From a plasmid: 64,000 nucleotides of DNA. Numbering within the stretch: the stretch's first letter is position 1; each line of letters starts with the position of its first letter. The stretch is from the NCBI RefSeq assembly GCF_055900595.2, contig NZ_JBVWEU010000002.1. One strand, 5' to 3'. The notes below the pieces were generated by a model. That model ran no database searches and had not been told where the DNA came from. It saw only the letters and a list, made by a program, of their open reading frames with translations. The position numbers were made by a program, and so were the translations under genes. This document shows, piece by piece, positions 1 to 17,529 of the stretch.

Positions 1-138
1 CAACCCAAAGTGGAAGCCATTATTGATTTCATCAATGCCAGCCAGCAACAAGGCAAACAGGCCAGCGGACTGATTACTTCACCGCAAACCATAAAAGCAG
101 CCCTGGCACATCAGAGCGGAACATGGATAACCCTTTAA
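1..138 (+). CDS. 3' terminal fragment of an unidentified gene (5' end outside window)
   Basis: Frame 1 is open from the window edge to TAA at 136-138; the next gene starts 17 bp downstream. Confidence 0.3.
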   Translation, partial: QPKVEAIIDFINASQQQGKQASGLITSPQTIKAALAHQSGTWITL

Positions 139-154
139 TTCTCTGGAGAACACA

Positions 155-544
155 ATGACTACAACACTTTTAGCCGTTAACGGAACGCTGATGCGCGGTC
201 TGGAACTCAACCCAAATATGCAAAAAGCTGGCGGTATTTTTGTCCGTGAAGACCGAACTGACGCCCATTACCGGTTATGGAGTATTAATGATCGTCATCC
301 CGGAATGATCCGCGTGAATGAAGGAGGAGCACACGTAGACGTAGAAATCTGGCAACTGCCTCTGGCCAGTTTTGCCGAACTGTTAATGAACGAACCCGAA
401 GGCCTGACCATTGGAAAAATCAAACTTGCCGATGGTAGCGAAGTACTGGGCGTACTGGCAGAAAGCTGGCTGACTGAAGGCCAGAAGGAGATTACAGCAC
501 TGGGGGGCTGGCGCAAATACACCGGGAATTTTCACACGATGTAA
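155..544 (+). CDS. small hypothetical protein, possibly gamma-glutamylcyclotransferase-like
   Basis: 129-aa ORF tightly linked upstream of the permease gene; family guess rests only on the N-terminal motif LLAVNGTLMRG. Confidence 0.4.
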   Translation: MTTTLLAVNGTLMRGLELNPNMQKAGGIFVREDRTDAHYRLWSINDRHPGMIRVNEGGAHVDVEIWQLPLASFAELLMNEPEGLTIGKIKLADGSEVLGVLAESWLTEGQKEITALGGWRKYTGNFHTM

Positions 545-569
545 CGCGCATTTATAAAGGAAACATATT

Positions 570-1790
570 ATGCGTAAAGAAGATAATATGAATACGGCAT
601 CAGGATTGCGTATTACCATGATTTTGCTGGGTATTGCCGTCACACCTGTGCTGTTGTCATCCTCAAGCCTCGGCAATCAACTTTCCAGTGGTAGTTTAAT
701 TAGCGTCGTACTATTAGGCGGCGTCATTCTGACCTTACTTTCAGCCATCACCATTAGTGTGGGAGAAAAAGCCCGCCTGCCAACATACGGTATTGTGAAA
801 TATTCATTTGGCGAAAAAGGGGCCATCGCCATTAATATTTTGATGGCTATAAGTCTGTTCGGCTGGATTGCCGTTACCGCTAATATGTTTGGTCATTCGG
901 TGCATGACTTACTGGCGCAGAATGGGATTGAAGCGCCACTGGCACTGTTAGTGGCAGCTGGTTGTGTCATTTTTGTCGCCTCTACGGCCTTTGGTTTTTC
1001 CATTCTGGGCAAAGTTGCCCAGGTCGCCGTGCCGGTTATCGCACTGGTGCTGTGTTATATACTCTATGTGGCAACCCATACCGAAGTATCAGCGCCAGCA
1101 GCGATAGCGGAGATGAGTACAGGTGTCGCCGTTTCCACCGTTGTTGGCACTATTATTGTGCTGGTTGCTACACTTCCCGACTTCGGTAGTTTTGTACATA
1201 ACCGAAAACATGCTCTGATTGCCGCAGGTATGACGTTTCTGGTTGCCTACCCTCTGCTATACTGGGCGGGTGCAACGCCGAGTGCCATTAGCGGCCAGGG
1301 CTCTTTACTGAATGCTATGGCAGTATTCGGTGCGGTTATGCCTGCAGCACTGTTGCTGATATTCGCCTGCGTCACCGGTAATGCGGGCAATATGTTCCAG
1401 GGGACGTTGGTAGTTTCCACACTGCTTAGCCGCTTTCCCAAATGGCAGATTACCGTTGCGCTGGGTATCCTTTCCGCCATCGTAGGCAGTATGGATATTA
1501 TGGCGTGGTTTATTCCGTTTCTGCTGTTCCTGGGTATCGCGACTCCCCCAGTTGCCGGAATTTATATCGCTGACTTTTTCCTTTATCGCCGTAATGGCTA
1601 TCAAGAGTCGGTGTTAACTCAGGAGTCACAGGTTAAAGTACTGACATTCGCTGCATGGATCACAGGCACAGCGGTTGGCTTTATGACCGTAAAAGGCTTA
1701 TTCACCCTGACGACGATCCCTTCAGTTGACTCCATTCTGGTGGCATGTATCGCGTATGCGATTCTCAGTCGGGCAAGTCAACACCGCTAA
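570..1790 (+). CDS. NCS1-family cytosine/purine permease (CodB-like)
   Basis: 406-aa polytopic membrane protein; length and hydrophobic-segment pattern resemble E. coli CodB as recalled. Confidence 0.65.
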   Translation: MRKEDNMNTASGLRITMILLGIAVTPVLLSSSSLGNQLSSGSLISVVLLGGVILTLLSAITISVGEKARLPTYGIVKYSFGEKGAIAINILMAISLFGWIAVTANMFGHSVHDLLAQNGIEAPLALLVAAGCVIFVASTAFGFSILGKVAQVAVPVIALVLCYILYVATHTEVSAPAAIAEMSTGVAVSTVVGTIIVLVATLPDFGSFVHNRKHALIAAGMTFLVAYPLLYWAGATPSAISGQGSLLNAMAVFGAVMPAALLLIFACVTGNAGNMFQGTLVVSTLLSRFPKWQITVALGILSAIVGSMDIMAWFIPFLLFLGIATPPVAGIYIADFFLYRRNGYQESVLTQESQVKVLTFAAWITGTAVGFMTVKGLFTLTTIPSVDSILVACIAYAILSRASQHR

Positions 1791-1867
1791 TTCCTGGGTA
1801 TACTCAGGCAATGATTACGGCTGAATCTGGAGAGATTCAGCCACTTTACCACTGACCAGGGAGCCTT

Positions 1868-2758
1868 ATGTTCATCTCAGACGAAACGATTCGAATTATT
1901 CATCTGGTCGCCAGACACCAGAACATCACCACCGCAGCCGAACAGTTAAATAAAGTCCCTTCTACTATCAGTTACACCCTGAAGAAAGCGGAAGAAACCC
2001 TGGGCGTTGAACTGTTCATTCGTAAGGGACGATATATTGAATTATCTCCGGCGGGGAGTTACTTCATCGAACATAGCAAAAATATTCTCCGCGATCTGGA
2101 TGCATTAAAGCGCAACACAGTGCTGATTCACGATGGTATTGAGCGTGAACTGACAATTGCGGTGAACAATATTATACCTGGTGATTTTCTGGTGTCATTT
2201 ATTCAAGATTTTGAACGGCAATTCACATCAACAACACTGACGGTAGATATTGAAGTATACAACGGCTGCTGGGATGCGCTGTACAGTAAACGTGCTGATC
2301 TGGTCTACGGTGCTCCTCATGCAGTACCAAGCAGTGAAGGCATCATTAGCGAACCGGTCGGACAAATAGAATGGGATTTTGTCGTCAGCCCACTTCATCC
2401 ACTGGCAGTGAAGCGGAATCCATTAGAAAATAGTGAATTGCGTCATTATCCTGCGGTTTGTATCCGGGATACCTCCGTTAACTTCCCCCCAATGCAAGCC
2501 TGGTTGTTGGAAGGACAAAAACCTATTTTTGTTCCTGACTTCGCCATGGCAATCAGCTTAATAGAACAAAACGTCGGTATTGGTTATATTCCACATCATC
2601 TGGCATTGCCGTTATTGAACAGAGGTAAATTGCTTAAAAAGCCAATGCGCGAACATAAACACGCCACCAAGTTATTTCTTGCCGCTCGTTCCGATGGTAT
2701 AGGAAAAGCCTGTCTGTGGTGCATGTCGTATTTAAGAAATAAGCAATTCATGGCGTAA
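1868..2758 (+). CDS. LysR-family transcriptional regulator (AllS-like)
   Basis: 296 aa; N-terminal HTH motif (ITTAAEQLNKVPSTISYTLKKAEETLGVELF) followed by a LysR substrate-binding domain. Confidence 0.8.
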   Translation: MFISDETIRIIHLVARHQNITTAAEQLNKVPSTISYTLKKAEETLGVELFIRKGRYIELSPAGSYFIEHSKNILRDLDALKRNTVLIHDGIERELTIAVNNIIPGDFLVSFIQDFERQFTSTTLTVDIEVYNGCWDALYSKRADLVYGAPHAVPSSEGIISEPVGQIEWDFVVSPLHPLAVKRNPLENSELRHYPAVCIRDTSVNFPPMQAWLLEGQKPIFVPDFAMAISLIEQNVGIGYIPHHLALPLLNRGKLLKKPMREHKHATKLFLAARSDGIGKACLWCMSYLRNKQFMA

Positions 2759-2976
2759 TACCATCAATACAGTGATATTGCCAGGCTCTTCCAGGGTTAT
2801 ACTGAATGCAATGATCCGAAAGGATGATGAATGGATTGATTCATACCACAAGTTTTCATTTTGACATCCTCCACGCCCTAAGGACGAGGGGTCCTGCTTC
2901 AACGGGCGGCATCCGTCATCCGCCAATACATTGAATAGCAGCAGACACCTGGTTAGGTGGAAAACAGCGCCTTATA

Positions 2977-2999
2977 TCCCCGCTGAAGGACGGGGTTTT
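2977..2999 (+). terminator. possible rho-independent terminator
   Basis: hairpin ccccg-ctgaagga-cgggg followed by TTTTA, about 220 bp downstream of the LysR gene. Confidence 0.3.
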
Positions 3000-3173
3000 A
3001 CGGTGCACGGATAAAAGGAGCATGAATGATGGAGTATGTAGAAGTATCGGAGAAAATTTGATATTCTTCTTGATAAAATGAGATTTTCTGCACATATAAG
3101 CATACAGGAGATTCATAGTACAAAAATAAAAAATCATAATAATAAACTTAAATTGACATAACTATAATCAACT

Positions 3174-3581
3174 TTGAACAGGAATATATTAATGATAAAA
3201 CAAAAGGTATTTTTCTCAGGTACTGTACTAGCTATTTTTTTATCTCTCAGCAACGTATCTTTGGCTTCCGGCCTGGATAAAAACATGCAGTCTCTTGCCA
3301 AAAGTATGAGTATTCTACAATCTTCCAATGATAAATCATCACTATTAAATGCTCTTGAAATGATGGATAAATCTGTAGATTCTTCTATGAATATTATTCC
3401 TGAAAAGATAGATGTTAATGATAAAGTTTCTGTAGATAATTATAAGGAAGAGTTAAAAAAACTACAACATGAAATCAATATTGCAAAAAAGAAAGTTGAG
3501 GACGGGAATATAGAATCATTACGTGAGTCTCTGGATAAAATGAACGATATAAAACTTGAAGGTCACCGAAAATTCAGATGA
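3174..3581 (+). CDS. cytochrome b562-family periplasmic protein (CybC-like), divergent
   Basis: 135 aa with signal peptide; alignable to cytochrome b562 including a Met near the mature N-terminus (LDKNMQSL) and a C-terminal His (EGHRKFR) at the expected heme-ligand positions; gene is AT-rich relative to its surroundings. Confidence 0.5.
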   Translation: MNRNILMIKQKVFFSGTVLAIFLSLSNVSLASGLDKNMQSLAKSMSILQSSNDKSSLLNALEMMDKSVDSSMNIIPEKIDVNDKVSVDNYKEELKKLQHEINIAKKKVEDGNIESLRESLDKMNDIKLEGHRKFR

Positions 3582-3832
3582 TCTACAAAAATAAATTTTA
3601 ATATTTAAATACGGCAATATATTTTATCATGTATTGCCGTCTTGGCGTATTCTTTCCGTTCCATTCAATTGCATCTGGCATAACAAGAGAAATAGTAGAC
3701 TCCTCATTACTGCTGTTGTATAACTGCGCACCATAATCTGCTAGACTGGCCCCCTGAATCTCCAGACAACCAATATCACTTAAATAAGTGATAGTCTTAA
3801 TACTAGTTTTTAGACTAGTCATTGGAGAGCAG

Positions 3833-4198
3833 ATGATTGATGTCTTAGGACCGGAGAAACGCAGACGGCGTACTACACAGGAAAAGATCGCTATTGTTCA
3901 GCAGAGTTTTGAACCGGGAATGACGGTCTCCCTTGTAGCCCGGCAACACGGTGTGGCAGCCAGCCAGCTATTTCTCTGGCGCAAGCAATACCAGGAGGGA
4001 AGTCTTACTGCTGTGGCCGCAGGAGAGCAGGTCGTTCCTGCCTCTGAACTTGCTGCTGCCATGAAGCAGATTAAAGAACTCCAGCGCCTGCTCGGCAAAA
4101 AAACGATGGAAAATGAACTCCTTAAAGAAGCCGTTGAATATGGGCGTGCAAAAAAGTGGATAGCGCACGCGCCCTTATTGCCCGGGGATGGGGAGTAA
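3833..4198 (+). CDS. insC: IS2 transposase OrfA (InsC)
   Basis: [40 protein letters not shown] matches IS2 InsC; the annotated ORF starts 15 codons upstream at 3788. Confidence 0.85.
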
Positions 4199-4821
4199 GC
4201 TTAGTCAGCCGTTGTCTCCGGGTGTCGCGTGCGCAGTTGCACGTCATTCTCAGACGAACCGATGACTGGAAAGATGGTCGCCGCAGCCGTCACTCCGATA
4301 ATACGGATGTGCTTCTCCGTATACACCATGTTATCGGAGAGCTGCCCACGTATGGTTATCGTCGGGTATGGGCGCTGCTTCGCAGACAGGCCGAACTTGA
4401 TGGTATGCCTGCGATCAATGCCAAACGTGTTTACCGGATCATGCGCCAGAATGCGCTGTTGCTTGAGCGAAAAACCGCTGTACCGCCATCGAAGCGGGCA
4501 CATACTGGCAAAGTGGCCGTGAAAGAAAGCAATCAACGATGGTGCTCTGACGGGTTCGAGTTCCGCTGTGATAACGGAGAAAAACTGCGAGTCACGTTCG
4601 CGCTGGACTGCTGTGACCGTGAGGCACTGTACTGGGCGGTCACTACGGGCGGCTTCGACAGTGAAACAGTACAGGACGTCATGCCAGGAGCGGTGGAACG
4701 CCGCTTCGGCAACGAGCTTCCGGCGTCTCCAGTAGAGTGGCTGACGGATAATGGTTCATGCTACCGGGCTAATGAAACACGGCAGTTTGCCCGGATGTTG
4801 GGGCTTGAACCGAAGAACACA
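4156..4821 (+). pseudogene. insD: IS2 transposase OrfB (InsD), truncated after about 222 codons
   Basis: [34 protein letters not shown] matches InsD; the frame then continues in-frame into unrelated ABC-transporter sequence. Confidence 0.8.
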
Positions 4822-5292
4822 GAGTTGAGTGCGTCTATCCTGGAGAACGTTGCTGTTGTGCCTCAAAAAGCCGTTCTGGTGCAGGGAACTATTCGTGATA
4901 ATATTCTGTATGGAACCGATGACATTCTTCCCGATGATGAACTGTTTTGCATCCTGAATTCATTAGGGTTAATTAAAGAGGACTGCGGAGAACATTTCCT
5001 TGCTTTCCTAGACCGGGATATTAATCCTCTGGGTAGTGGTTTGAGTGGTGGAGAGATCCAGCGATTATGCATAGCCCGCGCCCTAGCCCGTAAGAAAAAG
5101 ATTATCGTACTTGATGAACCCACGGCCTCTATTGGCGAAGAACTCGCGATAAAGATCATTACCTATATCCGGCAGCATTGCCCTACCGTTATTATTACAA
5201 CTCATAATCCACGAATTCTGGAGCTCGCCGATCATTTTTTTGATGGTATGTCAAAGTCTTGCGTCATTGCTGGAGAAGGCAGAGACCAATAA
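4822..5292 (+). pseudogene. 3' fragment of an ABC-transporter ATP-binding protein gene (exporter type)
   Basis: translation carries ABC signature LSGGEIQR, Walker [11 protein letters not shown] and H-loop TTHN; the 5' two-thirds of the gene is absent (replaced by IS2). Confidence 0.6.
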
Positions 5293-9095: not shown

Positions 9096-10025
9096 TCACG
9101 CTCGATGCATCAAATCCTGATAAATCCCCGTCAGTATTCCTTGTAAGCTAAATTCTCTTTTTATCCACTGAGTGACTTGACCGCTTGCCGAATGCCTGGT
9201 TGCCAACAGCATTCGTGAATCCTGACGTGGGTTGTGGATCTGCCGTGTCACCAGCAATGACTTTTCCATCGCTTCACGCACCATATAGTCTGGCAGAAAA
9301 CCGATTCCCTCCCCCAAGATCTGGCACTGAAGCTTAGTATTAAAGTCGGGAACCAGAATCGACTCTTGCCCGTGTAACAGCCAGCCGACTTTTTTGTTTA
9401 TAGTGTTTGCAGTGTCTTCCACCATGATGTTCGGGTACAGACGTAACTGACTCTCAGAAATGGGCTCAGGAATAAACGCCAGCGGATGAGCCGGAGAAAT
9501 CGCGAACAACCAACGAATCATGCCGATTTCAATGTAATCAATTCCACCACCGTCCAGTAACGTATCGGGCGCGCCAATGGCGATATCAGCCTGGTTATTA
9601 ATGAGTGAATCCCAGACGCCATTATACACCTCTGTAGTAATAGCTATCTGGCAGGTTGGAAAGTGTTCCCTGAGCACTTGCAGAAGCCGAGCTGTATGCT
9701 GAGGGGTATACAACAGTTGATTAATACAAATGCGCACCCGGGATTTAATTCCCTGAGCGATGGCATCAACTCTACGTATGATGGAGTGGTAATCGTTGAG
9801 CAGGTCAGTTGCTTTGCAAAAAAGGTAGTGCCCGGGCTCGGTCAGCTCAATGCTACGGGTAGTTCGGGTAAAAAGCACCACGTCAAGCCCCATTTCCATA
9901 CGCTTGATAGTGTAACTAATTGCCGATGTGGTTAAGCCCAGTTCCTTCGCCGCCTTGCTGAAACTTCTATAGCGGGCAGCCATAGTAAATGCCAGTAAGT
10001 TTTCTTCCGTAAATATTGAATTCAT
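9096..10025 (-). CDS. LysR-family transcriptional regulator (YahB-like)
   Basis: HTH motif FSKAAKELGLTTSAISYTIKRMEMGLDVVLF; start placed at the internal ATG (MNSIFTEENLL) rather than the 352-aa extended ORF. Confidence 0.8.
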   Translation of the reverse strand: MNSIFTEENLLAFTMAARYRSFSKAAKELGLTTSAISYTIKRMEMGLDVVLFTRTTRSIELTEPGHYLFCKATDLLNDYHSIIRRVDAIAQGIKSRVRICINQLLYTPQHTARLLQVLREHFPTCQIAITTEVYNGVWDSLINNQADIAIGAPDTLLDGGGIDYIEIGMIRWLFAISPAHPLAFIPEPISESQLRLYPNIMVEDTANTINKKVGWLLHGQESILVPDFNTKLQCQILGEGIGFLPDYMVREAMEKSLLVTRQIHNPRQDSRMLLATRHSASGQVTQWIKREFSLQGILTGIYQDLMHRA

Positions 10026-10412
10026 CTTTCTTTCCTCTGGCGACAATACACATACACAACATGATGATTGTTGAATGTATTTGTAATTCTTATAACCGAC
10101 AATCAGTTTTGAAAAAACTAACACCGTATTTACATTTAATTTGAAGGAAATCACACATCTGAATTTTAATTACAGGCAGCTATCCGTGCTGCAGACCACC
10201 TTTATTTATATGACTGCGGATTAATGGCTAAAATATCCCCAGCTATAATAGAAATATTGCACTATATCACACTCTCTTATTATTGTTAATTTTGTTTCAA
10301 TAATTCATGGTCTAATGATGAGTAAATTTTAAATGGATGGTGCTCTATGCATTCTGTTGCTATTCTTGGCTTGTTATATTTGTAAAATCTTAAAAAGAGC
10401 AGGAGATCGATT

Positions 10413-11018
10413 ATGTCCAATAAAGAACTCATTACAGAATTTCTGCTGGCGGCAGAACAAGGTAATTCCGATGGATTAAAATCATGCCTTGATAAAAAGG
10501 TTGATATTAATGCGACTAACCGCGAGGGGCGTACTGCAATTATTATTGCCAGTCTGAATAAACATTATGACTGCGTTTCTTTATTGATTTCCGCAGGTGC
10601 TGATATTAATAAACAAGATCAAACTTGTTTTAATCCCTTCCTGATTGGCTGCCTGAATAATGATTTAACACTGTTGCGTACGGTATTACCGGCTAACCCC
10701 GACCTTAATTGCCTAACCCGTTTTGGCGGTGTTGGTATTACACCTGCCTGCGAAAAAGGCCATGTCGAGATTGTACGTGAATTGCTGATGCGTACTGATA
10801 TCAATGTCAACCATACTAATTTTGTTGGCTGGACGCCGCTCCTAGAGGCCATCGTGCTGAATGACGGCGGTGAAAAGCAGCAGGAGATCGTCAAACTGTT
10901 GCTTGAGCATGGCGCAAACCCGCACATGACGGATAAATACGGTAAAACCCCGCTGGAGCTGGCGCGAGAAAAAGGCTACCACAAAATTGCCGAGTTGCTG
11001 ATTTCGGCTGGAGCCTGA
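10413..11018 (+). CDS. ankyrin-repeat protein (YahD-like)
   Basis: 201 aa with repeated ankyrin motifs (GRTAIIIASLNKHYDCVSLLISAGADIN; GWTPLLEAIV...LLLEHGANPH; GKTPLELAREKGYHKIAELLISAGA). Confidence 0.8.
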   Translation: MSNKELITEFLLAAEQGNSDGLKSCLDKKVDINATNREGRTAIIIASLNKHYDCVSLLISAGADINKQDQTCFNPFLIGCLNNDLTLLRTVLPANPDLNCLTRFGGVGITPACEKGHVEIVRELLMRTDINVNHTNFVGWTPLLEAIVLNDGGEKQQEIVKLLLEHGANPHMTDKYGKTPLELAREKGYHKIAELLISAGA

Positions 11019-11103
11019 CAACAGGAGCACGATTATCGCTATATTATCACGGCAATCTTTTCGGGCACTAACCGCAGACTGCGCGTTTCTCACTTTTCGG
11101 GGA

Positions 11104-11952
11104 ATGGGCCAGGTTGAACAGGTTTTTTCCCATGCGGTAAATCTGTTAATACCTGAACAGCAGCGACTGCTGACGTTACTGAGTGAGGATTGTGATAACG
11201 CACCTAACAGTTGTCGTTTAGCACTGACACATTATGAAGACCTTTTTCACCCCGGTGAACAGGTCAATTTTAGCGGGTCTGGAATAACTGTTGGAAATGA
11301 TAAATGGATAGAAATAACCGGTTGTCAGATGTGGCGAATACCACGGTGGACATCTGATTCAGCAAGCCTTGCCAAAGTCGGCTGGCAGCATTGGGAAGAG
11401 TTTATCCGCCAACAACTAAGAAGCAACGACACATTATTTCTGTACCAGGGTGACAATCCATTTTATCAGGAAATTTCTCGCCAATTACTCAACCGCCGAA
11501 AAAATTTGCTGAAGGCGTTGTGTACAGGAGAAAACATCACTGCGGCAGTCAACCAGTTAATTGGTCTTGGAATAGGGCTGACGCCATCATCGGATGATTA
11601 TTTAGTAGGTTTAAGCACTATTTTATTTATTCAAGGACATCCACTAAGGAAGTATAGATACGATTTCTTAGCAGCATTACAACTTGCAGGAAATAACATA
11701 ACGCTTCTCAGCAAAATAACGTTAGAGGAAGCATTTAATCAGCGTTATCGGGAAAGAGTCGGACGGCTACTGAACCAATTTATTACTGAGCCACAACCCA
11801 TTTCTACGCAATATGTTACTGACATAAAAAATATAGGCTCAAGTTCTGGATGCGACATGCTGTATGGCATGGCGGATGCCTGCGCCCTGAGCCACAGGTC
11901 CGGAGGTAATTATGTCAATCAGGATAGTTGTAAAAAAAAACACGTATTTTGA
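11104..11952 (+). CDS. YlbF/YahE-family protein (DUF2877-like)
   Basis: 282-aa ORF overlapping the downstream FdrA-family gene by 41 nt; position and size match yahE in the E. coli yah cluster as recalled. Confidence 0.6.
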   Translation: MGQVEQVFSHAVNLLIPEQQRLLTLLSEDCDNAPNSCRLALTHYEDLFHPGEQVNFSGSGITVGNDKWIEITGCQMWRIPRWTSDSASLAKVGWQHWEEFIRQQLRSNDTLFLYQGDNPFYQEISRQLLNRRKNLLKALCTGENITAAVNQLIGLGIGLTPSSDDYLVGLSTILFIQGHPLRKYRYDFLAALQLAGNNITLLSKITLEEAFNQRYRERVGRLLNQFITEPQPISTQYVTDIKNIGSSSGCDMLYGMADACALSHRSGGNYVNQDSCKKKHVF

Positions 11953-13459
11953 TTCTGTTTCACTGATGTCTATCTCCACGCGCGCAAATAAGCTTGATGG
12001 AGTTGAGCAGGCATTTGTTGCTATGGCGACAGAGATGAATAAGGGGGTGCTGAAGAATCTCGGTCTGCTGACCCCTGAGCTGGAAGAGGCGAAAAGTGGC
12101 GATCTGATGATTGTCATTAAAGGTACCAGCGAGGAGGCGAACGAGCGGACGCTAATAGCGATTGATGAGCTGTTTGCGCATAAAGAACAGGGAGGCCAGC
12201 ACGAAGCACGCTATGCCACGATTGCCAGTGCGAAGAAGCATGCTCCAGAGAGTAATCTGGCGGTGATCTCTGTCAATGGCCTGTTTGCTGCTCGTGAAGC
12301 TCGTCAGGCACTACAAAATAACCTCAATGTTATGCTGTTTTCTGACAACGTCTCTCTTGAGGACGAGCTGGAACTCAAGCATCTGGCACATGAAAAAGGG
12401 TTGTTGATGATGGGGCCTGATTGTGGAACCGCCATCATTAACGGCGCAGCGTTGTGTTTTGGCAATGCAGTGCGTCGCGGCAACATCGGAATCATTGGTG
12501 CCTCCGGTACGGGTAGCCAGGAGCTGAGCGTACGCATTCACGAATTTGGCGGCGGGATTTCCCAGCTGATTGGGACAGGTGGACGCGATATGAGTGAAAA
12601 AATTGGCGGCCTGATGATGCTTGACGCGATTAGCATGCTGGAGGCCGATCCACAAACTGAGATCATTACGCTTATATCCAAACCTCCTGCACCAGCGGTA
12701 GCCCGTAAGGTGCTGGAACGTGCGCGCACCTGTCACAAGCCTGTGGTGGTGTGTTTCCTCGGACGTGAGTCCACCCCTGCGGATGAAGAAGGCCTACAGT
12801 TTGCCCGCGGTACTAAAGAGGCTGCCTTGAAAGCGGTACTGTTGACTGGTGTGAAAAAAGAGAGTCTGGATTTGCATCCGCTCAACTGGCAGCTGATTGA
12901 AGAGGTTCGCTCCCGTCTGACTCCACAACAAAAGTATATCCGTGGCCTGTTCTGTGGTGGCACGTTATGCGATGAAGCGATGTTTACTGCCATGGAAAAA
13001 CTCTCGGATGTGTATAGCAATATTCACCCGAATCCGGCGTTCCGCCTTACAGATCTCAACCGTAGCGTGGCGCATACCTTCCTCGATTTCGGCGATGATT
13101 ATTTTACCAACGGCAAACCACATCCGATGATCGATCCCACCAATCGCATTACCCGGCTCTTGCAGGAAGCACAGGATCCTGAAGTTGGCGTGATCGTGAT
13201 GGACTTCATTCTTGGATTTGGATCACATGAAGATCCGGTTGGAGTGATGCTGGATACAATTGTTGAAGCCAAAGAAATTGCTGCCGCAGACGGTCGCCCG
13301 CTTGAGATCCTCGGCTATGTGCTGGGAACCGACCTTGATACACCGTCGCTGAAAAAACAGTGTCAGATGTTGACCGATGCCGGGGTTATTTGGGCAAGCA
13401 GTAGCACCAACACCGGATTACTGGCACGTGAATTTATATTTAAAGGGGAGGAAGGCTGA
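11912..13459 (+). CDS. FdrA-family protein (YahF-like)
   Basis: 515 aa with CoA-ligase-like glycine-rich motifs (MMGPDCGTAIINGA, GNIGIIGASGTGSQE); length equals E. coli YahF as recalled. Confidence 0.75.
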   Translation: MSIRIVVKKNTYFDSVSLMSISTRANKLDGVEQAFVAMATEMNKGVLKNLGLLTPELEEAKSGDLMIVIKGTSEEANERTLIAIDELFAHKEQGGQHEARYATIASAKKHAPESNLAVISVNGLFAAREARQALQNNLNVMLFSDNVSLEDELELKHLAHEKGLLMMGPDCGTAIINGAALCFGNAVRRGNIGIIGASGTGSQELSVRIHEFGGGISQLIGTGGRDMSEKIGGLMMLDAISMLEADPQTEIITLISKPPAPAVARKVLERARTCHKPVVVCFLGRESTPADEEGLQFARGTKEAALKAVLLTGVKKESLDLHPLNWQLIEEVRSRLTPQQKYIRGLFCGGTLCDEAMFTAMEKLSDVYSNIHPNPAFRLTDLNRSVAHTFLDFGDDYFTNGKPHPMIDPTNRITRLLQEAQDPEVGVIVMDFILGFGSHEDPVGVMLDTIVEAKEIAAADGRPLEILGYVLGTDLDTPSLKKQCQMLTDAGVIWASSSTNTGLLAREFIFKGEEG

Positions 13460-14877
13460 TGAGCCAGACACTGTTTAATCAGCCGCTGAACGTTATTAAT
13501 GTCGGTATCGAAATGTTCAGCGATGACATGAAAAAGCAGAATGTACCGGTAACCCAACTTGACTGGACACCGCCAGGCCAAGGAAACATACAAGTGGTAA
13601 CGGCACTGGACGACATTGCCGCTTCACCACTGGCAGACAAAATTGCAGCTGCTAATCAGCTGGCGCTGGAACGCATTATCCAGTCGCATCCTGTGCTAAT
13701 TGGCTATGATCAGGCGATCAACGTCGTGCCGGGTATGACCCGTAACACTATCCTTCACGCCGGGCCGCCAATCCACTGGGAAAAAATGTGCGGCGCAATG
13801 AAGGGCGCAGTAACCGGGGCTCTGGTATTTGAAGGACTGGCGAAAGATCTGGATGATGCCGCCGAACTAGCTGCTTCAGGTGAAATCATCTTCTCTCCGT
13901 GCCACGAACATGACTGTGTCGGCTCAATGGCGGGTGTCACGTCTGCATCGATGTTTATGCACATCGTCGAGAACAAAACCTATGGAAACCGCGCATATAC
14001 CAATATGAGCGAGCAGATGGCAAAGATCCTGCGTATGGGCGCTAACGACCAGAGCGTTATAGAGCGTCTTAACTGGATGCGAGATGTACTGGGACCTATG
14101 TTGCGCGATGCTATGAAGCTGGCGGGCGAAATCGATCTGCACTTGATGTTAGCGCAGGCGCTGCATATGGGCGATGAGTGCCATAACCGCAACAACGCCG
14201 GGACGGCGCTGCTGATTCAGACGCTGACGCCGTGGATTATTCAGACTGGCTACCCTGTTGAGCAGCAGCGTGAGGTGTTCGAGTTTGTCCTCAGTAGTGA
14301 TTACTTCTCAGGACCAACATGGATGGCAATGTGTAAAGCCGCAATGGACGCTGCGCACGGCATTGAATACAGCACCGTGGTGACAACGATGGCACGCAAT
14401 GGTGTTGAGTTCGGTCTTCGTATTAGCGGTTTGCCGGGCCAGTGGTTTACCGGTCCGGCGCAGCAGGTGATTGGGCCGATGTTTGCGGGCTATAAGCTAG
14501 AGGATTCCGGACGTGATATCGGTGATAGTGCAATTACCGAAACCTACGGCGTTGGCGGTTTCGCTATGGCGACGGCACCAGCTATTGTGTCACTGGTGGG
14601 CGGAACAGTTGAGGAAGCTATTGATTTCTCACGTAAAATGAGAGAAATCACTCTCGGAGAAAACCCCAACGTCACCATTCCCCTGCTTGGTTTTATGGGC
14701 GTACCGACCGCTATCGATATTACACGTGTAGGCAGTACAGGCATTCTGCCGGTAATTAACACAGCCATTGCGCACAAAGACGCAGGGATCGGCATGATCG
14801 GCGCAGGAATTGTTCACCCGCCGTTCACTTGTTTTGAAAAGGCGATCCTCAACTGGCGTGACCACTACTGCCAATAA
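13459..14877 (+). CDS. YlbE/YahG-family protein (DUF1116-like)
   Basis: 472 aa; start codon overlaps the upstream stop (ATGA); length equals E. coli YahG as recalled. Confidence 0.7.
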   Translation: MSQTLFNQPLNVINVGIEMFSDDMKKQNVPVTQLDWTPPGQGNIQVVTALDDIAASPLADKIAAANQLALERIIQSHPVLIGYDQAINVVPGMTRNTILHAGPPIHWEKMCGAMKGAVTGALVFEGLAKDLDDAAELAASGEIIFSPCHEHDCVGSMAGVTSASMFMHIVENKTYGNRAYTNMSEQMAKILRMGANDQSVIERLNWMRDVLGPMLRDAMKLAGEIDLHLMLAQALHMGDECHNRNNAGTALLIQTLTPWIIQTGYPVEQQREVFEFVLSSDYFSGPTWMAMCKAAMDAAHGIEYSTVVTTMARNGVEFGLRISGLPGQWFTGPAQQVIGPMFAGYKLEDSGRDIGDSAITETYGVGGFAMATAPAIVSLVGGTVEEAIDFSRKMREITLGENPNVTIPLLGFMGVPTAIDITRVGSTGILPVINTAIAHKDAGIGMIGAGIVHPPFTCFEKAILNWRDHYCQ

Positions 14878-14989
14878 CAATAACCGGGGCTAACGCAGTT
14901 AGCCCCACAGTAGCGGAAAACGTTGTTTACCTTCAGGGCTGGGCGATCTCCATGATCGCAAACGATGCTTAACCTGTTAAGGAGATTCC

Positions 14990-16540
14990 ATGAACAGCAT
15001 AAAACTAGAATGGAAACGTGGTGACTGGGCGGCTTACTTTGGACTGATGACCAACAATCTGACTAACCTGCTGACAATGATGGGTCTGCTAATTTTTGTC
15101 GTCGGAATCCCTACTGAAATTGTCTATGGACGCATTGCGCCTGCCTTTGGTCTTGCAGTGCTGGCGGCCAGTGTCTGCTACTCCTGGTTTGGTCTACAGA
15201 TGGTGAAGAAAACCGGTCGTAGCGATGTAACGGCGCTGCCGTCTGGACCGAGCGCACCCTCAATCTTTACCGTGACATTCCTGGTGCTGATGCCGGTTTA
15301 TCAGCAAACCAAAGATGCCAACTTTGCTATTCAGATAGGATTGGTGTGGTGCTTTGTCGAAGCGTTGATCCTGGTCGGTGGCTCCTTCCTGGGTGAGACT
15401 ATCCGCAAGATGATCCCGCGTACAGTGCTGCTTTCTTGTCTGTCCGGACTGGGGTTATTACTGCTGGCAATGAACCCGATGCTGCAAGCGTTCGAAGCGC
15501 CGACAGTTTCTTTCATCGTCCTGTTATTGATCTTCATTAACTGGTTCGGTAAGAAGCCGATTTTTCCCCATATTCCTACCGGTTTGCTGTTGCTGATTGC
15601 TGGTACGTCCCTAGCGTGGATATCCGGTTTACAAAGCCCGGAAGACATTAAAGCGTCGATGTCTTCCTTCGGCTTCAACCCGCCGGAAATTCATGTAAGG
15701 AGCTTCCTGCAAGGTTTGCCGCACGCTCTGCCATATCTGGCTTCTGCAGTTCCTTTGGGCCTGGCTAACTACATTTTTGACCTCGAGAACATTGAAAGTG
15801 CGCACGCGGCTGGTGATGAATACAACACCCGTAAGGTCATGATGGCGAACGGCTTTGCCTCCATGCTCGGTTGCATGCTGGGTAATCCGTTCCCGGTAAC
15901 CGTATATGTTGGGCATGCAGGCTGGAAAGCTATGGGCGCTAGTATCTGCTATACCCTCGCATCAGGCATCACTATGTTCCTGGTGCCATTGTTTGGGTTG
16001 GGCGCGTTTATGCTCGCCATTATTCCCATGACTGCTATAGTGCCAATTCTGGTTTTTATCGGTGTGGTAACCGCCAATCAGGTGGTGCGAGAAACTCCTA
16101 AAGTCGAGGTTCCCGTCATTTTCATCTGTCTGTTCCCATGGGTCGCCAACTGGGCATTGACCATCGTTAACAGCGTGATGGGCGCAGCCGGAACATCCGC
16201 TGAGAAACTTGGTAGCGACCTGTTGCACAGCAAAGGCGTCTATTACGATGGACTGATGCATCTGGGAAGCGGTGCACCGCTGGCCAGCATGCTGTGGGGA
16301 TGCATTGCTATCTTTGCCATTATGAATAAGCCGCTGCGCGGGGCGATAGCTGCATCCTTTGGAGCACTGTTATCGCTGTTTGGCGTGATTCACTCCCCAG
16401 CGGTTGGCTTTGCGGAAGGCAGCTCGATTGTGTTTGTTGTGGCCTACCTGATGATGCTTGCTATGTTTGCCCTCAAGCATGTTATTGATAGCCGTGAAAC
16501 AGTGGCTGCGTCTGAGCAGGAAGAGACTAAAACGACCTGA
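14990..16540 (+). CDS. polytopic membrane permease (possibly NCS2/AzgA-like)
   Basis: 516 aa with many hydrophobic segments; sits between yahG-like and carbamate kinase genes; family assignment tentative. Confidence 0.6.
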   Translation: MNSIKLEWKRGDWAAYFGLMTNNLTNLLTMMGLLIFVVGIPTEIVYGRIAPAFGLAVLAASVCYSWFGLQMVKKTGRSDVTALPSGPSAPSIFTVTFLVLMPVYQQTKDANFAIQIGLVWCFVEALILVGGSFLGETIRKMIPRTVLLSCLSGLGLLLLAMNPMLQAFEAPTVSFIVLLLIFINWFGKKPIFPHIPTGLLLLIAGTSLAWISGLQSPEDIKASMSSFGFNPPEIHVRSFLQGLPHALPYLASAVPLGLANYIFDLENIESAHAAGDEYNTRKVMMANGFASMLGCMLGNPFPVTVYVGHAGWKAMGASICYTLASGITMFLVPLFGLGAFMLAIIPMTAIVPILVFIGVVTANQVVRETPKVEVPVIFICLFPWVANWALTIVNSVMGAAGTSAEKLGSDLLHSKGVYYDGLMHLGSGAPLASMLWGCIAIFAIMNKPLRGAIAASFGALLSLFGVIHSPAVGFAEGSSIVFVVAYLMMLAMFALKHVIDSRETVAASEQEETKTT

Positions 16541-16566
16541 ATAGCCTGCAAACGGAAGATAATTCT

Positions 16567-17529
16567 ATGAAAGAACTTGTGGTCGTTGCCATTGGTGGCA
16601 ACAGCATTATCAAAGATAACGCCAGCCAGTCGATTGAGCATCAGGCGGAGGCGGTGAAGGCCGTCGCCGATACGGTTCTGGAAATGCTGGCTTCCGATTA
16701 CGACATTGTGCTGACCCACGGCAACGGGCCGCAGGTCGGTCTGGATTTACGCCGCGCGGAGATAGCCCACGAGCGCGAAGGGCTACCCTTAACGCCGCTG
16801 GCGAACTGTGTGGCGGATACGCAAGGCGGCATTGGCTATCTGATCCAGCAGGCGCTGAACAACCGGCTGGCGCCTCACGGCGAGAAAAAAGCCGTCACCG
16901 TGGTGACTCAGGTGGAAGTGGATAAAAACGATCCGGGGTTTGTCCATCCCACCAAGCCCATCGGTGCATTCTTTAGTGAAAACCAGCGTGATGAACTACA
17001 AAAGGCAAACCCTGACTGGCGTTTTGTTGAAGATGCCGGACGGGGCTATCGCCGCGTGGTCGCCTCGCCGGAACCGAAACGTATTGTCGAAGCACCTGCC
17101 ATTAAGACTCTGATCCAGCAAGGCTTTGTGGTGATTGGCGCGGGCGGCGGTGGCATTCCGGTGGTGCGTACTGACGCAGGGGATTACCAAAGCGTGGACG
17201 CGGTTATCGACAAAGATCTCTCTAGCGCGCTACTGGCTCGCGAAATTCACGCCGACATTCTGGTGATCACCACCGGCGTGGAAAAAGTGAGTATTCATTT
17301 TGGGAAACCCAACCAGCATGCACTGGATACAGTGGATGTCCTAACGATGGCCCGTTACATGCAGGAGGGTCACTTCCCGCCTGGGAGTATGTTACCGAAG
17401 ATTCTTGCCAGTCTGGAGTTCCTGGAACGTGGAGGTAAAAGAGTGATTATCACCACGCCTGAATGCCTGTCCGCGGCACTGCGTGGCGAAACAGGCACCC
17501 ATATTATCCACTCCCAAGAGGAGACGTAA
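16567..17529 (+). CDS. carbamate kinase (ArcC/YahI-like)
   Basis: 320 aa; N-terminal motif VVVAIGGNSI and HGNGPQVG typical of carbamate kinase. Confidence 0.85.
   Translation: MKELVVVAIGGNSIIKDNASQSIEHQAEAVKAVADTVLEMLASDYDIVLTHGNGPQVGLDLRRAEIAHEREGLPLTPLANCVADTQGGIGYLIQQALNNRLAPHGEKKAVTVVTQVEVDKNDPGFVHPTKPIGAFFSENQRDELQKANPDWRFVEDAGRGYRRVVASPEPKRIVEAPAIKTLIQQGFVVIGAGGGGIPVVRTDAGDYQSVDAVIDKDLSSALLAREIHADILVITTGVEKVSIHFGKPNQHALDTVDVLTMARYMQEGHFPPGSMLPKILASLEFLERGGKRVIITTPECLSAALRGETGTHIIHSQEET

What the first reader, a model, noticed from the sequence alone, without database searches (positions are those of the whole stretch)
155..2758. Small unassigned gene, CodB-like permease and LysR regulator as a possible substrate-uptake unit
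Three co-oriented genes follow the 3' end of an unseen upstream gene. The 129-aa protein has no secure assignment. The unit may be the distal end of a catabolic operon for a pyrimidine- or ureide-like compound.
Basis: inference. Interest (0 to 1): 0.25.

Follow-up and report, generated by a model that had tools for sequence, protein, structure and literature searches.

The report
Tail of an acyl-urea catabolic operon
The three genes are real and form the end of a widespread but experimentally uncharacterised eight-gene E. coli accessory cluster, which probably imports a small urea-derived compound (triuret/biuret-like) and breaks it down to ammonia, CO2 and ATP.

Summary
ORFs lie at 155-544, 570-1790 and 1868-2758 (+), after the last 45 codons of a carbamate kinase gene.

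The 129-aa protein is not unassigned. It is a standalone allophanate-hydrolase C-terminal domain (Pfam AH_C, E=4e-42). Its chromosomal allele is the crystal structure PDB 5C5Z, which I recall to be UPEC protein c4763.

On identical ColV-type plasmids, and in about 1,500 E. coli chromosomes (between ysgA and metE; absent from K-12), the unseen upstream genes are:
- a cysteine hydrolase carrying the full triuret-hydrolase (TrtA) residue signature;
- paralogues of AllH, AllF and AllG (oxamic transcarbamylase);
- a carbamate kinase.

This order is kept across Proteobacteria in 80 sampled loci.

The permease is CodB-like but lacks CodB's cytosine-contacting Gln and Phe. In some genera an unrelated transporter replaces it at the same position.

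A covarying hairpin (1819-1842) separates the permease from the LysR gene.

Best reading: uptake of an acyl-urea, amide hydrolysis, phosphorolytic release of carbamoyl phosphate, then ATP formation. The AH_C protein would handle an N-carboxy intermediate. The substrate and the AH_C role are inferred, not shown.

The cluster has been noticed in print but never tested. I rate it a new variant of known systems, of moderate interest.

The parts
1..138 (+). 3' end (45 codons plus stop) of the carbamate kinase gene, fifth gene of the operon
   Evidence: RefSeq annotates arcC on 100%-identical plasmids. The fragment gives a weak TIGR00746 match. The full-length protein scores 365.2 bits, above the 358.25 cut-off.
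155..544 (+). Standalone AH_C protein of 129 aa (allophanate-hydrolase C-terminal-domain family, GGCT-like fold). It is the plasmid allele of the protein solved as PDB 5C5Z.
   Evidence: Pfam AH_C E=4.2e-42. PDB 5C5Z E=1.7e-78; residues 1-129 of 5C5Z are identical to the UTI89 allele, and the plasmid allele differs at 11 variable sites. 47 columns are invariant across 24 homologues from several orders. dN/dS is 0.14.
570..1790 (+). NCS1-family permease of 406 aa. It has the CodB fold but a different binding pocket. Presumed importer of the operon's substrate.
   Evidence: Pfam and NCBIfam matches. It aligns to CodB (7QOA) over residues 11-401. Trp108 is kept, but Gln105 is Leu, Phe204 is Ile and Phe33 is Thr; this pattern is conserved in 42 of 54 aligned sequences. 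An unrelated 516/528-aa transporter family occupies the same position in Phytobacter/Kosakonia-type loci. RefSeq starts the gene at 567.
1793..1804 (+). Conserved CCTGGGTATACT motif directly after the permease stop codon (GGTATAAT in related genera). It may be the -10 element of a promoter for the LysR gene.
   Evidence: Nearly invariant columns in the alignment of 10 Enterobacterales intergenic regions. The consensus promoter scan did not call it, so its function is inferred only.
1819..1842 (+). 10-bp stem, 4-nt loop hairpin (GGCTGAATCT-GGAG-AGATTCAGCC) between the permease and LysR genes. Terminator-like boundary of the operon.
   Evidence: 96% of cells are paired; 7 of 10 pairs show compensatory changes; 0 of 500 shuffles reach the observed score. 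The equivalent position carries a canonical T-tailed terminator in Rahnella, Silvimonas and Caballeronia. The whole 77-nt spacer is 100% identical between plasmid and chromosomal alleles, although the flanking genes have dS of 0.16-0.25.
1868..2758 (+). LysR-type transcriptional regulator of 296 aa in the PunR/AllS/YahB clade. Presumed substrate-responsive regulator of the operon.
   Evidence: Pfam HTH_1 plus LysR_substrate. PunR model 275.8 bits (cut-off 345) and AllS model 205 bits (cut-off 372). 33% identical to YahB. Found next to the cluster in 50 of 80 loci, either downstream or upstream. dN/dS is 0.28.

Best explanation
Bases 155-2758 are the distal end of a conserved accessory operon whose first four and a half genes lie just outside the window. 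The full order is: TrtA-type cysteine (isochorismatase-like) hydrolase, AllH-like, AllF-like, AllG-like, carbamate kinase, AH_C protein, NCS1 permease, then a LysR regulator behind a hairpin.

Proposed mechanism (inferred):
1. The permease imports a small planar acyl-urea, most likely triuret or a close relative such as biuret.
2. The hydrolase removes a terminal amide as NH3 and leaves an N-carboxy ureide (carboxybiuret or allophanate type).
3. The three-subunit paralogue of AllF, AllG and AllH transfers a terminal carbamoyl group to phosphate, as AllFGH does with oxalurate.
4. The carbamate kinase converts carbamoyl phosphate plus ADP to ATP, NH3 and CO2.
5. The 129-aa AH_C protein acts on the N-carboxylated intermediate. 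The likeliest reaction is decarboxylation, by analogy with the second step ascribed to the C domain of allophanate hydrolase. In that case it stands where TrtB or AtzF stand in the canonical triuret pathway.
6. The LysR protein senses the substrate or an intermediate and activates the operon.

Shown here: gene identities, operon architecture, conservation, residue signatures and the hairpin. Inferred: the substrate, every reaction, and the regulatory logic.
For: Operon context:
- Identical plasmids and about 1,500 chromosomes carry the same eight genes with gaps of 0-94 nt or overlaps.
- The order is kept in Paraburkholderia, Photobacterium, Dyella and Silvimonas, where precomputed Pfam labels are Isochorismatase, AllH, AllF_N plus Ligase_CoA, AllG, AA_kinase, AH_C and Transp_cyt_pur.
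- Counts across 80 AH_C loci from species-representative genomes: IHL 68, AllG 61, CK 61, AllF 60, NCS1 56, LysR 50.

Hydrolase:
- Best PDB matches are TrtA 6XIX (269 bits), then BiuH (243 and 233 bits), then RutB (109 bits).
- All 13 catalytic, binding and TrtA-versus-BiuH diagnostic residues named in PMC7948467 are of TrtA type.
- The same signature is present in all 67 hydrolases of this kind next to AH_C. The 9 second paralogues in Verrucomicrobia carry the BiuH-type residue (per PMC7948467) at every diagnostic position, or all but one in one sequence.
- It scores below the BiuH equivalog cut-off (279.8 against 370), whereas the Verrucomicrobial second paralogue passes (410.7).

AllF, AllG, AllH and kinase paralogues:
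- 40%, 48% and 32% identical to K-12 AllF, AllG and AllH; 49% to YahI.
- The OXTCase activity of AllFGH and the kinase activity of AllK are experimentally established (PMC11326118, PMC9843812).

AH_C coupling:
- Natural fusions exist: IHL-AH_C in both orders, CK-AH_C, and cupin-AH_C.
- TrtB is absent from all 80 AH_C loci and an AtzF-type amidase is present in 1 of 80. Both canonical trtA loci examined carry TrtB, and one of them (L090) also carries AtzF.

Permease: its pocket differs from CodB's and is conserved. A non-orthologous transporter takes its place in some loci.

Selection: dN/dS is 0.07-0.28 for all eight genes.

Independent literature: biuH and trtA lie next to allFGHK, and sometimes codB, in comammox Nitrospira and ammonia-oxidising archaea (PMC12625717).
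Against: - No experiment exists for any gene of this cluster apart from the 5C5Z crystal structure.
- The TrtA signature rests on one paper's consensus, and the protein is only about 60% identical to TrtA. Another acyl-urea or ureide could be the true substrate.
- Nothing shows that the AllFGH paralogue accepts carboxybiuret, biuret or allophanate rather than oxalurate or something else.
- Pathway variants that end in urea would waste half the nitrogen in urease-negative E. coli.
- The standalone AH_C family lacks the His found in the two AH C domains aligned (Leu12 instead) and has its own invariant polar residues. Its chemistry may therefore differ from the AH C domain's.
- The catalytic role of that C domain is itself disputed: AtzF truncated of it is fully active (PMC3944691).
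- The IHL-AH_C fusions involve BiuH-type rather than TrtA-type hydrolases.
- In cyanobacteria AH_C sits alone among housekeeping genes.
- No promoter or LysR-binding site was identified.
Confidence: 0.55

Rival explanations
1. Pyrimidine nitrogen scavenging, as suggested for the chromosomal copy ('GR 29') of APEC BEN2908. A CodB-like permease would import cytosine or uracil, a RutB-like hydrolase would release carbamate from a ring-opened pyrimidine, and the FdrA-like and YqeA-like enzymes would process the carbamoyl units.
For: PMC12928451 proposes this from 32% identity to RutB and 26.5% to CodB. The permease is annotated as cytosine permease. RutB belongs to the same superfamily.
Against: - The hydrolase is far closer to TrtA/BiuH (269 and 243 bits) than to RutB (109 bits). 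Its RutB equivalog score is 117 against a cut-off of 378.
- No ring-opening enzyme (RutA/RutF, dihydropyrimidinase or barbiturase type) occurs in any of the syntenic loci inspected.
- CodB's cytosine-contacting Gln105 and Phe204 are Leu and Ile.
- The permease scores 148 bits against the 326-bit CodB cut-off.
Confidence: 0.1
2. An isofunctional back-up of the allantoin/oxalurate branch. The AllFGH-like complex and the kinase would degrade oxalurate exactly as AllFGH and AllK do. The hydrolase, AH_C protein and permease would feed an oxalurate precursor into it, for example an amide or cyclic precursor such as parabanate or an oxaluramide-type compound.
For: The subunits belong to the same Pfam families as AllF, AllG and AllH and are 32-48% identical to them. 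The LysR regulator resembles AllS. Urate oxidation products include oxalurate precursors (general knowledge).
Against: - Identity to AllF, AllG and AllH is no higher than to the YahE, YahF and YahG paralogues, so orthology is not indicated.
- E. coli strains carrying this cluster normally also have allFGHK (my own knowledge; not tested here).
- The hydrolase keeps every TrtA pocket residue, which argues for a triuret-shaped substrate.
- No allantoin-pathway gene is linked in any locus.
Confidence: 0.15
3. A urease substitute. The 129-aa protein, as a homologue of allophanate hydrolase, would take part in urea breakdown and serve UPEC as a fitness factor in urine. This is how the c4763 structure paper is cited.
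For: PMC7558591 summarises the c4763 paper in this way. The protein is homologous to the AH C domain. The cluster is enriched in ExPEC-type genomes such as UTI89 and ST131.
Against: - Urea amidolysis needs a biotin-dependent urea carboxylase and the amidase domain of AH. Neither is in the cluster.
- The protein matches only positions 440-562 of the 563-position AH model, scoring 103 bits against a 511-bit cut-off.
- An amidase gene is next to AH_C in only 1 of 80 loci.
- The cluster also occurs in the laboratory B strain lineage and in soil and marine bacteria.
Confidence: 0.05
4. The AH_C protein is not an enzyme. It would be a structural or assembly subunit that docks the hydrolase or the kinase onto the AllFGH-like complex, as the C-terminal part of AtzF influences oligomeric state.
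For: AtzF lacking its C-terminal 14 kDa is fully active but changes oligomeric state (PMC3944691). Fusions to the hydrolase, kinase or cupin partners are equally compatible with a scaffold role. The His found in the two AH C domains aligned is absent.
Against: 47 of 129 positions are invariant across orders. Many are polar or charged (N9, T11, R14, N19, N21, R31, E32, D36, D46, H48, E64, E80, K88, E103), which fits a ligand-binding or catalytic site better than a variable interface. AH_C also occurs with only the two hydrolases, or alone, without AllFGH.
Confidence: 0.12

Closest known systems
AllFGH oxamic transcarbamylase plus AllK carbamate kinase of E. coli K-12 (fdrA-ylbE-ylbF-ybcF)
   Same: The same three protein families (AllF, AllG, AllH) are followed by a carbamate kinase. 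An AllS-like LysR regulator is linked. The expected logic is the same: acyl-urea plus phosphate gives carbamoyl phosphate, which gives ATP.
   Different: Only 32-48% identical. The gene order follows the yah cluster (H-F-G-K), not F-G-H-K. The module is embedded with a TrtA-type hydrolase, an AH_C protein and an NCS1 permease instead of the allantoin genes. The substrate is unknown.
Canonical triuret/biuret pathway TrtA-TrtB-BiuH-AtzF (Herbaspirillum; PMC7948467)
   Same: The first enzyme has the TrtA residue signature. The AH_C domain is present there as the C-terminal domain of AtzF. A dedicated transporter and regulator are linked.
   Different: There is no TrtB, no BiuH and no amidase domain. 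The AllFGH-type complex and the kinase take their place. The transporter is NCS1 rather than Bmp-type ABC, and the regulator is LysR rather than GntR.
yahEFG-yahI cluster of E. coli K-12 (uncharacterised)
   Same: Same gene order (DUF2877, FdrA-like, DUF1116, carbamate kinase) and a YahB-like LysR regulator. A copy of this cluster lies in the same window at 9096-17529.
   Different: 25-49% identity. The yah cluster has an ankyrin protein and an amidohydrolase (YahJ) or a 516-aa transporter, instead of the cysteine hydrolase, AH_C protein and NCS1 permease.
c4763 of UPEC CFT073 / PDB 5C5Z
   Same: The same protein. Residues 1-129 of 5C5Z are identical to the UTI89 chromosomal allele, and the plasmid allele is 91% identical.
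   Different: The deposited name is 'Glutamyl-tRNA amidotransferase', and the urea-degradation role given in secondary citations is not backed by the gene context found here. That 5C5Z is c4763 is my recollection plus the citation in PMC7558591; the primary paper is not held.
Cytosine permease CodB (NCS1; PDB 7QOA)
   Same: Same fold and length, aligned over about 390 residues. The TM3 tryptophan (Trp108) and Asn280 are kept.
   Different: About 26% identity, and below the equivalog cut-off (148 against 326 bits). Gln105 is Leu, Phe204 is Ile, Phe33 is Thr and the sodium-site Thr279 is Gly.

Membership tests
AH_C domain family (Pfam PF21986) | Full-length match to the domain model above the gathering score | tested here: met
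   143.5 bits against a cut-off of 27, covering residues 5-123 and model positions 2-122 of 123.
Allophanate hydrolase (TIGR02713 / EC 3.5.1.54) | Amidase-signature N domain together with the C domain, and a score above the equivalog cut-off | tested here: not met
   103.3 bits against a cut-off of 511. Only model positions 440-562 are matched and there is no amidase domain. No amidase gene lies in the cluster.
GGACT/AIG2-like gamma-glutamyl cyclotransferases (PF06094) | Match above the gathering score | tested here: not met
   20.1 bits against a cut-off of 22.8. A distant fold relationship only.
NCS1 transporters (PF02133) | Match to the family model over the whole 12-TM core | tested here: met
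   53.1 bits against 23.5, covering residues 15-398. Aligned to CodB 7QOA over residues 11-401.
Cytosine permease CodB (NF008241 equivalog) | Score above the equivalog cut-off, and the cytosine-contacting residues Gln105, Trp108 and Phe204 | tested here: not met
   148 bits against 326. Gln105 is Leu and Phe204 is Ile; only the tryptophan is kept.
LysR-type transcriptional regulators | N-terminal HTH_1 domain plus C-terminal LysR_substrate domain | tested here: met
   56.5 and 88.3 bits, both above their cut-offs.
PunR or AllS (specific LysR equivalogs) | Score above the equivalog cut-off | tested here: not met
   PunR 275.8 bits against 345; AllS 205.3 bits against 372.
Triuret hydrolase TrtA (upstream gene of the operon, outside the window) | Catalytic triad D24/K129/C162; binding residues F29, E72, K132 and Q202; diagnostic residues F35, N41, A134, E160, Y187 and I205 (PMC7948467) | tested here: met
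   All 13 positions are identical to 6XIX in the E. coli protein and in 67 orthologues.
Triuret hydrolase TrtA | Hydrolysis of triuret to carboxybiuret with strong discrimination against biuret | not testable with these tools
   This is an enzymatic property and needs purified protein.
Biuret hydrolase BiuH (NF050097 equivalog) | Score above the equivalog cut-off | tested here: not met
   279.8 bits against 370. The second paralogue in Verrucomicrobia passes with 410.7 bits.
AllFGH-type three-subunit carbamoyltransferase (upstream genes) | Presence of all three subunit families (AllF, AllG, AllH) as adjacent genes | tested here: met
   Pfam AllH, HMA_AllF_N plus Ligase_CoA, and AllG in syntenic loci. 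FdrA subfamily model 491.6 bits against 433. 40%, 48% and 32% identity to K-12 AllF, AllG and AllH.
AllFGH-type three-subunit carbamoyltransferase | Oxalurate plus phosphate giving carbamoyl phosphate plus oxamate | not testable with these tools
   Activity and substrate range need biochemistry. Orthology to AllFGH, as opposed to YahEFG, is not indicated.
Carbamate kinase (TIGR00746) | Score above the equivalog cut-off | tested here: met
   365.2 bits against 358.25 for the full-length plasmid protein. The window holds only its last 45 codons.

The most novel reading that the evidence does not exclude
The cluster encodes a phosphorolytic, ATP-yielding route for triuret, biuret or allophanate-type acyl-ureas. 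An AllFGH-type enzyme would cleave carboxybiuret, biuret or allophanate to carbamoyl phosphate, replacing hydrolytic allophanate hydrolase. A standalone AH_C protein would be an N-carboxy-ureide decarboxylase that replaces TrtB. In ExPEC, APEC and their ColV plasmids this would let urease-negative E. coli gain nitrogen and energy from products of urate oxidation in urine or bird excreta. The same logic would explain why biuH/trtA lie next to allFGHK in nitrifiers.
Probability: 0.25. Interest if true: 0.7.

Novelty: new variant of a known kind. Interest (0 to 1): 0.4.

Why it matters
The operon is present in more than a quarter of complete E. coli genomes, including UTI89, ST131 and BL21. It is also present on about 120 ColV-type virulence plasmids and in at least several hundred bacterial species. 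No gene in it has a tested function.

If the reading is right, it would:
- assign a physiological role to a third AllFGH-type paralogue set;
- give the AH_C fold a testable activity outside allophanate hydrolase;
- correct the misleading annotations 'cytosine permease' and 'glutamyl-tRNA amidotransferase';
- connect triuret/biuret turnover to substrate-level ATP formation.

A natural strain pair makes the idea directly testable: BL21 has the cluster and K-12 lacks it at the same site.

If the reading is wrong, the three genes remain an ordinary permease, regulator and small-enzyme tail of an accessory catabolic operon.

Tried and rejected
- **Long-range anti-Shine-Dalgarno helix.** The single-sequence fold suggested pairing of TCCTGG (1792-1797) with the LysR ribosome-binding site CCAGGG. 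Covariation does not support it: 106 of 500 shuffles reach the observed pairing, and only one pair has compensatory change. Dropped.
- **Consensus sigma-70 promoter and intrinsic terminator scans.** Window 1-3300 and the region upstream of the first operon gene gave no more sites than shuffled sequence. They did not call the 1819-1842 hairpin, which lacks a T tract in E. coli.
- **Rfam scan of the whole operon region at a permissive threshold.** Only two chance-level hits, and no riboswitch.
- **Primary papers not held.** The c4763 structure, the K. lactis allophanate hydrolase and TrtB papers could not be read. The catalytic residues of the AH C domain therefore could not be checked against the text, and I did not rely on my recollection of them.
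- **Failed search.** The first homology search with the TrtA sequence timed out; it was repeated successfully.
- **Transporter family.** Pfam, NCBIfam and PDB sequence searches gave nothing for the 528-aa and 516-aa membrane proteins. They were linked only by pairwise BLASTP.
- **CFT073 locus tags.** A literature search for c4759-c4765 found only a synteny table that lumps c4760-c4780 as 'Entner-Doudoroff pathway'.
- **Structure prediction.** Not run, because an experimental structure of the protein exists.


Full report
**1. Observation**

They follow an ORF that runs in from the left edge and stops at 136-138.

Each matches a curated family well beyond chance:
- 129 aa: AH_C, E=4.2e-42.
- 406 aa: NCS1 family 'permease for cytosine/purines'. 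The NCBIfam cytosine-permease model gives E=3e-43 but only 148 bits against a 326-bit cut-off.
- 296 aa: LysR HTH plus substrate domain. The nearest equivalogs, PunR and AllS, both score below their cut-offs.

The plasmid and chromosomal alleles differ mostly at synonymous sites. dN/dS is 0.14, 0.12 and 0.28 for the three genes, and 0.07-0.26 for the five upstream genes.

**2. Source and the unseen upstream genes**

Window 1-3000 is 100% identical to many large E. coli plasmids from poultry and other hosts. They carry eitABCD and bacteriocin-related genes, so they are of ColV/ColBM type. The window is 93% identical to a chromosomal segment present in about 1,500 of 5,426 complete E. coli genomes.

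On plasmid pAMSC2 the co-oriented genes upstream are a cysteine hydrolase, a DUF2877 protein, FdrA, a DUF1116 protein and the carbamate kinase arcC. Gaps are 5-94 nt or the genes overlap. The AH_C protein, the permease and LysR follow.

In UTI89 and a BL21(DE3) derivative the same eight genes sit between ysgA and metE. In K-12 those two genes are adjacent, so the cluster is absent there. The plasmid proteins are 91-97% identical to the UTI89 ones.

**3. The 129-aa protein**

Its best PDB match is 5C5Z (E=1.7e-78). Residues 1-129 of 5C5Z are identical to the UTI89 allele. The plasmid allele differs at 11 positions, none of them invariant in the family. I recall 5C5Z as c4763 of UPEC CFT073, and PMC7558591 cites that structure paper. 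The primary paper is not held.

The next PDB matches are the C-terminal domains of allophanate hydrolases and urea amidolyase, at E of about 1e-11.

The standalone form is a large family. There are 4,415 database proteins at E<=1e-5, relatives in 451 species-representative genomes, and 599 clusters (50% identity) at E<=1e-10.

Across 24 members from Enterobacterales, Burkholderiales, Neisseriales, Vibrionales, Alteromonadales and Xanthomonadales, 47 of 129 columns are invariant, and many of these are polar.

I aligned the family with two true AH C domains. It shares the fold-defining glycines and prolines and E64/E103. It has Leu where those domains have a His in the VVGAHL motif, and it carries its own invariant set: N9, T11, R14, N19, N21, R31, E32, D36, D46, H48, E80 and K88.

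**4. Synteny**

Four loci from other orders have the identical order Isochorismatase, AllH, AllF, AllG, AA_kinase, AH_C, NCS1. LysR lies downstream or upstream.

In 80 loci recovered with an AH_C alignment, tblastn with the eight plasmid proteins found these partners next to AH_C:

| Partner | Loci of 80 |
|---|---|
| Cysteine hydrolase (IHL) | 68 |
| AllG-like | 61 |
| Carbamate kinase | 61 |
| AllF-like | 60 |
| NCS1 permease | 56 |
| LysR | 50 |
| AllH-like | 43 |

AllH is only 23-58% identical to the plasmid AllH in loci outside E. coli, so it is undercounted.

Three other arrangements are informative:
- **Verrucomicrobial loci** lack AllFGH and the kinase. They have a porin-like gene, a TrtA-type hydrolase, a 528-aa membrane protein, a second hydrolase that passes the BiuH equivalog cut-off, a cupin, and then AH_C.
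- **Phytobacter/Kosakonia-type loci** have a homologue of that 528-aa membrane protein directly after AH_C, in place of the NCS1 permease.
- **Cyanobacterial AH_C genes** stand among housekeeping genes.

**5. The hydrolase points to the substrate class**

The cluster hydrolase matches TrtA (6XIX/6XJ4) at 269 bits, BiuH structures at 233-243 bits and RutB at 109 bits.

The TrtA paper names the catalytic triad, the binding residues, and six positions whose consensus differs between TrtA and BiuH. The PDB chain numbering is the paper's numbering plus 3. All 13 positions are of TrtA type in the E. coli protein and in every one of the 67 orthologues next to AH_C. The nine second paralogues in Verrucomicrobia carry the BiuH-type residue named in the paper at every diagnostic position (one of them has Ala rather than Ser at position 134).

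Canonical trtA loci in Herbaspirillum and Paraburkholderia contain a Bmp-type ABC transporter, BiuH, TrtA, an AtzH-like gene in the position of TrtB, and GntR; the Herbaspirillum locus also has AtzF (amidase plus AH_C). Among the 80 AH_C loci, none has a TrtB homologue and only one has an AtzF-type amidase.

**6. The carbamoyl-phosphate module**

The FdrA-, DUF1116- and DUF2877-like proteins are 40%, 48% and 32% identical to K-12 AllF, AllG and AllH. They are 42%, 47% and 25% identical to YahF, YahG and YahE. The kinase is 49% identical to YahI and 39% to AllK.

AllFGH is the experimentally shown oxamic transcarbamylase, and AllK is the catabolic carbamate kinase (PMC11326118, PMC9843812).

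A 2025 metagenomic study found biuH and trtA next to allFGHK, and sometimes codB, in comammox Nitrospira and ammonia-oxidising archaea. It read them as two separate pathways. It also noted that the comammox contigs with allFGHK lack trtB (PMC12625717).

**7. Fusions**

Among the closest representatives of the AH_C family there are natural fusions:
- carbamate kinase-AH_C (458 aa);
- isochorismatase-AH_C (408 aa);
- AH_C-isochorismatase (369 aa);
- cupin-AH_C (251 aa).

The fused hydrolases carry mostly BiuH-type residues at the diagnostic positions, by my reading of the sequences. A cysteine hydrolase joined to AH_C mirrors the amidase-plus-AH_C architecture of allophanate hydrolase. Its N and C domains are reported to catalyse sequential steps (PMC5770610). 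However, AtzF without its C-terminal part is fully active (PMC3944691).

**8. Permease and regulator**

The permease aligns with CodB (7QOA) over residues 11-401. Comparison with the CodB residues described in PMC9379551:

| CodB residue | Role | Here |
|---|---|---|
| Trp108 | stacks on cytosine | Trp (kept) |
| Gln105 | hydrogen bond to cytosine | Leu |
| Phe204 | stacks on cytosine | Ile |
| Phe33 | pocket wall | Thr |
| Thr279 | sodium site | Gly |

This pattern is the same in 42 of the 54 aligned sequences (53 orthologues plus the query), and the other 12 differ only at Phe32-, Phe204- or Thr279-equivalent positions. 'Cytosine permease' is therefore an over-annotation.

Replacement by an unrelated transporter at the same position supports the view that this slot encodes the pathway's importer.

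The 77-nt spacer between the permease and LysR genes is 100% identical between the plasmid and UTI89 alleles. At 93% overall identity about five differences would be expected.

The spacer contains a 10-bp hairpin at 1819-1842. In ten Enterobacterales sequences the hairpin is 96% paired, 7 of 10 pairs show compensatory changes, and no shuffle reaches the observed score. In Rahnella, Silvimonas and Caballeronia the same position holds a classical T-tailed terminator.

A conserved GGTATA(A/C)T motif lies just upstream at 1793-1804. It may be a -10 element for the LysR gene, but the scan tools do not support this.

**9. Interpretation**

Shown:
- The three genes are the tail of a conserved, selected eight-gene accessory module.
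- Its enzymes combine a TrtA-type amide hydrolase with an AllFGH-type carbamoyltransferase, a carbamate kinase and an AH_C protein.
- A transporter and a LysR regulator are linked to it.

Inferred: an imported acyl-urea, with triuret as the best candidate, is deamidated to an N-carboxy ureide. A carbamoyl group is then transferred to phosphate and converted to ATP, NH3 and CO2. The AH_C protein processes an N-carboxy intermediate.

I cannot decide whether the AllFGH-like enzyme acts on carboxybiuret, biuret or allophanate. I also cannot decide whether AH_C decarboxylates carboxybiuret (a TrtB-like role) or allophanate. The variants that end in urea would be wasteful in urease-negative E. coli.

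Rival readings are weaker for the reasons given under each: pyrimidine scavenging as proposed for BEN2908 'GR 29' (PMC12928451), an oxalurate back-up, a urease substitute, and a scaffold role for AH_C.

**10. Novelty and score**

The genes are annotated. The small protein's structure is published, and the cluster has been described in passing. The finding as stated is therefore not new.

I found no published link between the TrtA signature, the AllFGH-type module, the AH_C fusions and the transporter displacement that reads them as a single pathway, and I found no experimental test. I rate it a new variant of known systems, with interest 0.4.

Noticed in passing
window 9096-17529: A second AllFGH/carbamate-kinase-type module lies about 6 kb downstream (LysR ends at 2758; this module starts at 9096) on the same plasmid. 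It is homologous to K-12 yahB-yahD-yahE-yahF-yahG-yahI, with amino-acid identities of 85% (YahB), 53% (YahE), 83% (YahF), 90% (YahG) and 93% (YahI). Layout: LysR (minus strand, 9096-10154), ankyrin protein 10413-11018, DUF2877 11104-11952, FdrA-like 11912-13459, DUF1116 13459-14877, a 516-aa protein 14990-16540, carbamate kinase-like 16567-17529. The plasmid therefore carries two paralogous modules of this rare enzyme type.
   Followed up: partly
window 14990-16540; L079 6993-8579; L065, L067-L069, L071 and L075 at about 10420: A 516-aa polytopic membrane protein has no Pfam, NCBIfam or PDB match. It occupies the place of yahH in the yah-like module. It is 39% identical to the 528-aa protein that lies between the TrtA-type and BiuH genes in Verrucomicrobia. 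The same family replaces the NCS1 permease directly after AH_C in Phytobacter/Kosakonia-type loci. It is an undescribed transporter family that links all these clusters.
   Followed up: partly
window 1791-1867: The intergenic spacer is 100% identical between the plasmid and UTI89 chromosomal alleles, although the flanking genes have dS of 0.16-0.25. It contains the covarying hairpin 1819-1842 and a conserved GGTATA(A/C)T motif at 1793-1804. A possible helix sequestering the LysR ribosome-binding site was tested and not supported.
   Followed up: yes
window ~2739-3000: Homology between the plasmid and chromosomal copies ends within the last 10-20 bases of the LysR gene. The plasmid protein is 296 aa and the chromosomal one 301 aa. 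The right-hand boundary of the captured module therefore lies at the 3' end of the LysR gene. G+C content falls to 0.29-0.38 just beyond it.
   Followed up: no
window 3192-5292: A cytochrome b562 gene (3192-3581; Pfam E=8e-15) is followed by an IS3-family transposase remnant. Its reading frame runs into a fragment of an ABC-transporter ATP-binding domain, giving the ORF 4156-5292. RefSeq annotates a frameshifted IS3 transposase plus an 'ATP-binding cassette domain-containing protein'.
   Followed up: no
L070, L072, L073, L077, L079-L081, L084, L086, L088 (Verrucomicrobia): A distinct cluster type: porin-like gene, TrtA-type hydrolase, 528-aa transporter, BiuH, ChrR-like cupin and AH_C. It has no AllFGH, kinase, TrtB or amidase, and a sigma-54 response regulator lies upstream in the one locus annotated (L079). 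A cupin-AH_C fusion protein also exists (P0247).
   Followed up: partly
P0244, P0252, P0259, P0269, P0279, P0266 (database proteins): AH_C occurs fused to carbamate kinase, to isochorismatase-like hydrolases in both orders, to DUF3810, to a flavodoxin-like domain, and (in P0266) to an HMG box. The hydrolase moieties of the fusions carry mostly BiuH-type rather than TrtA-type residues.
   Followed up: partly
window 567-572: RefSeq starts the plasmid permease at 567 (ATT), giving 407 aa. The first ATG is at 570, giving 406 aa. The chromosomal allele has one extra codon near the N terminus and starts at the ATG.
   Followed up: no
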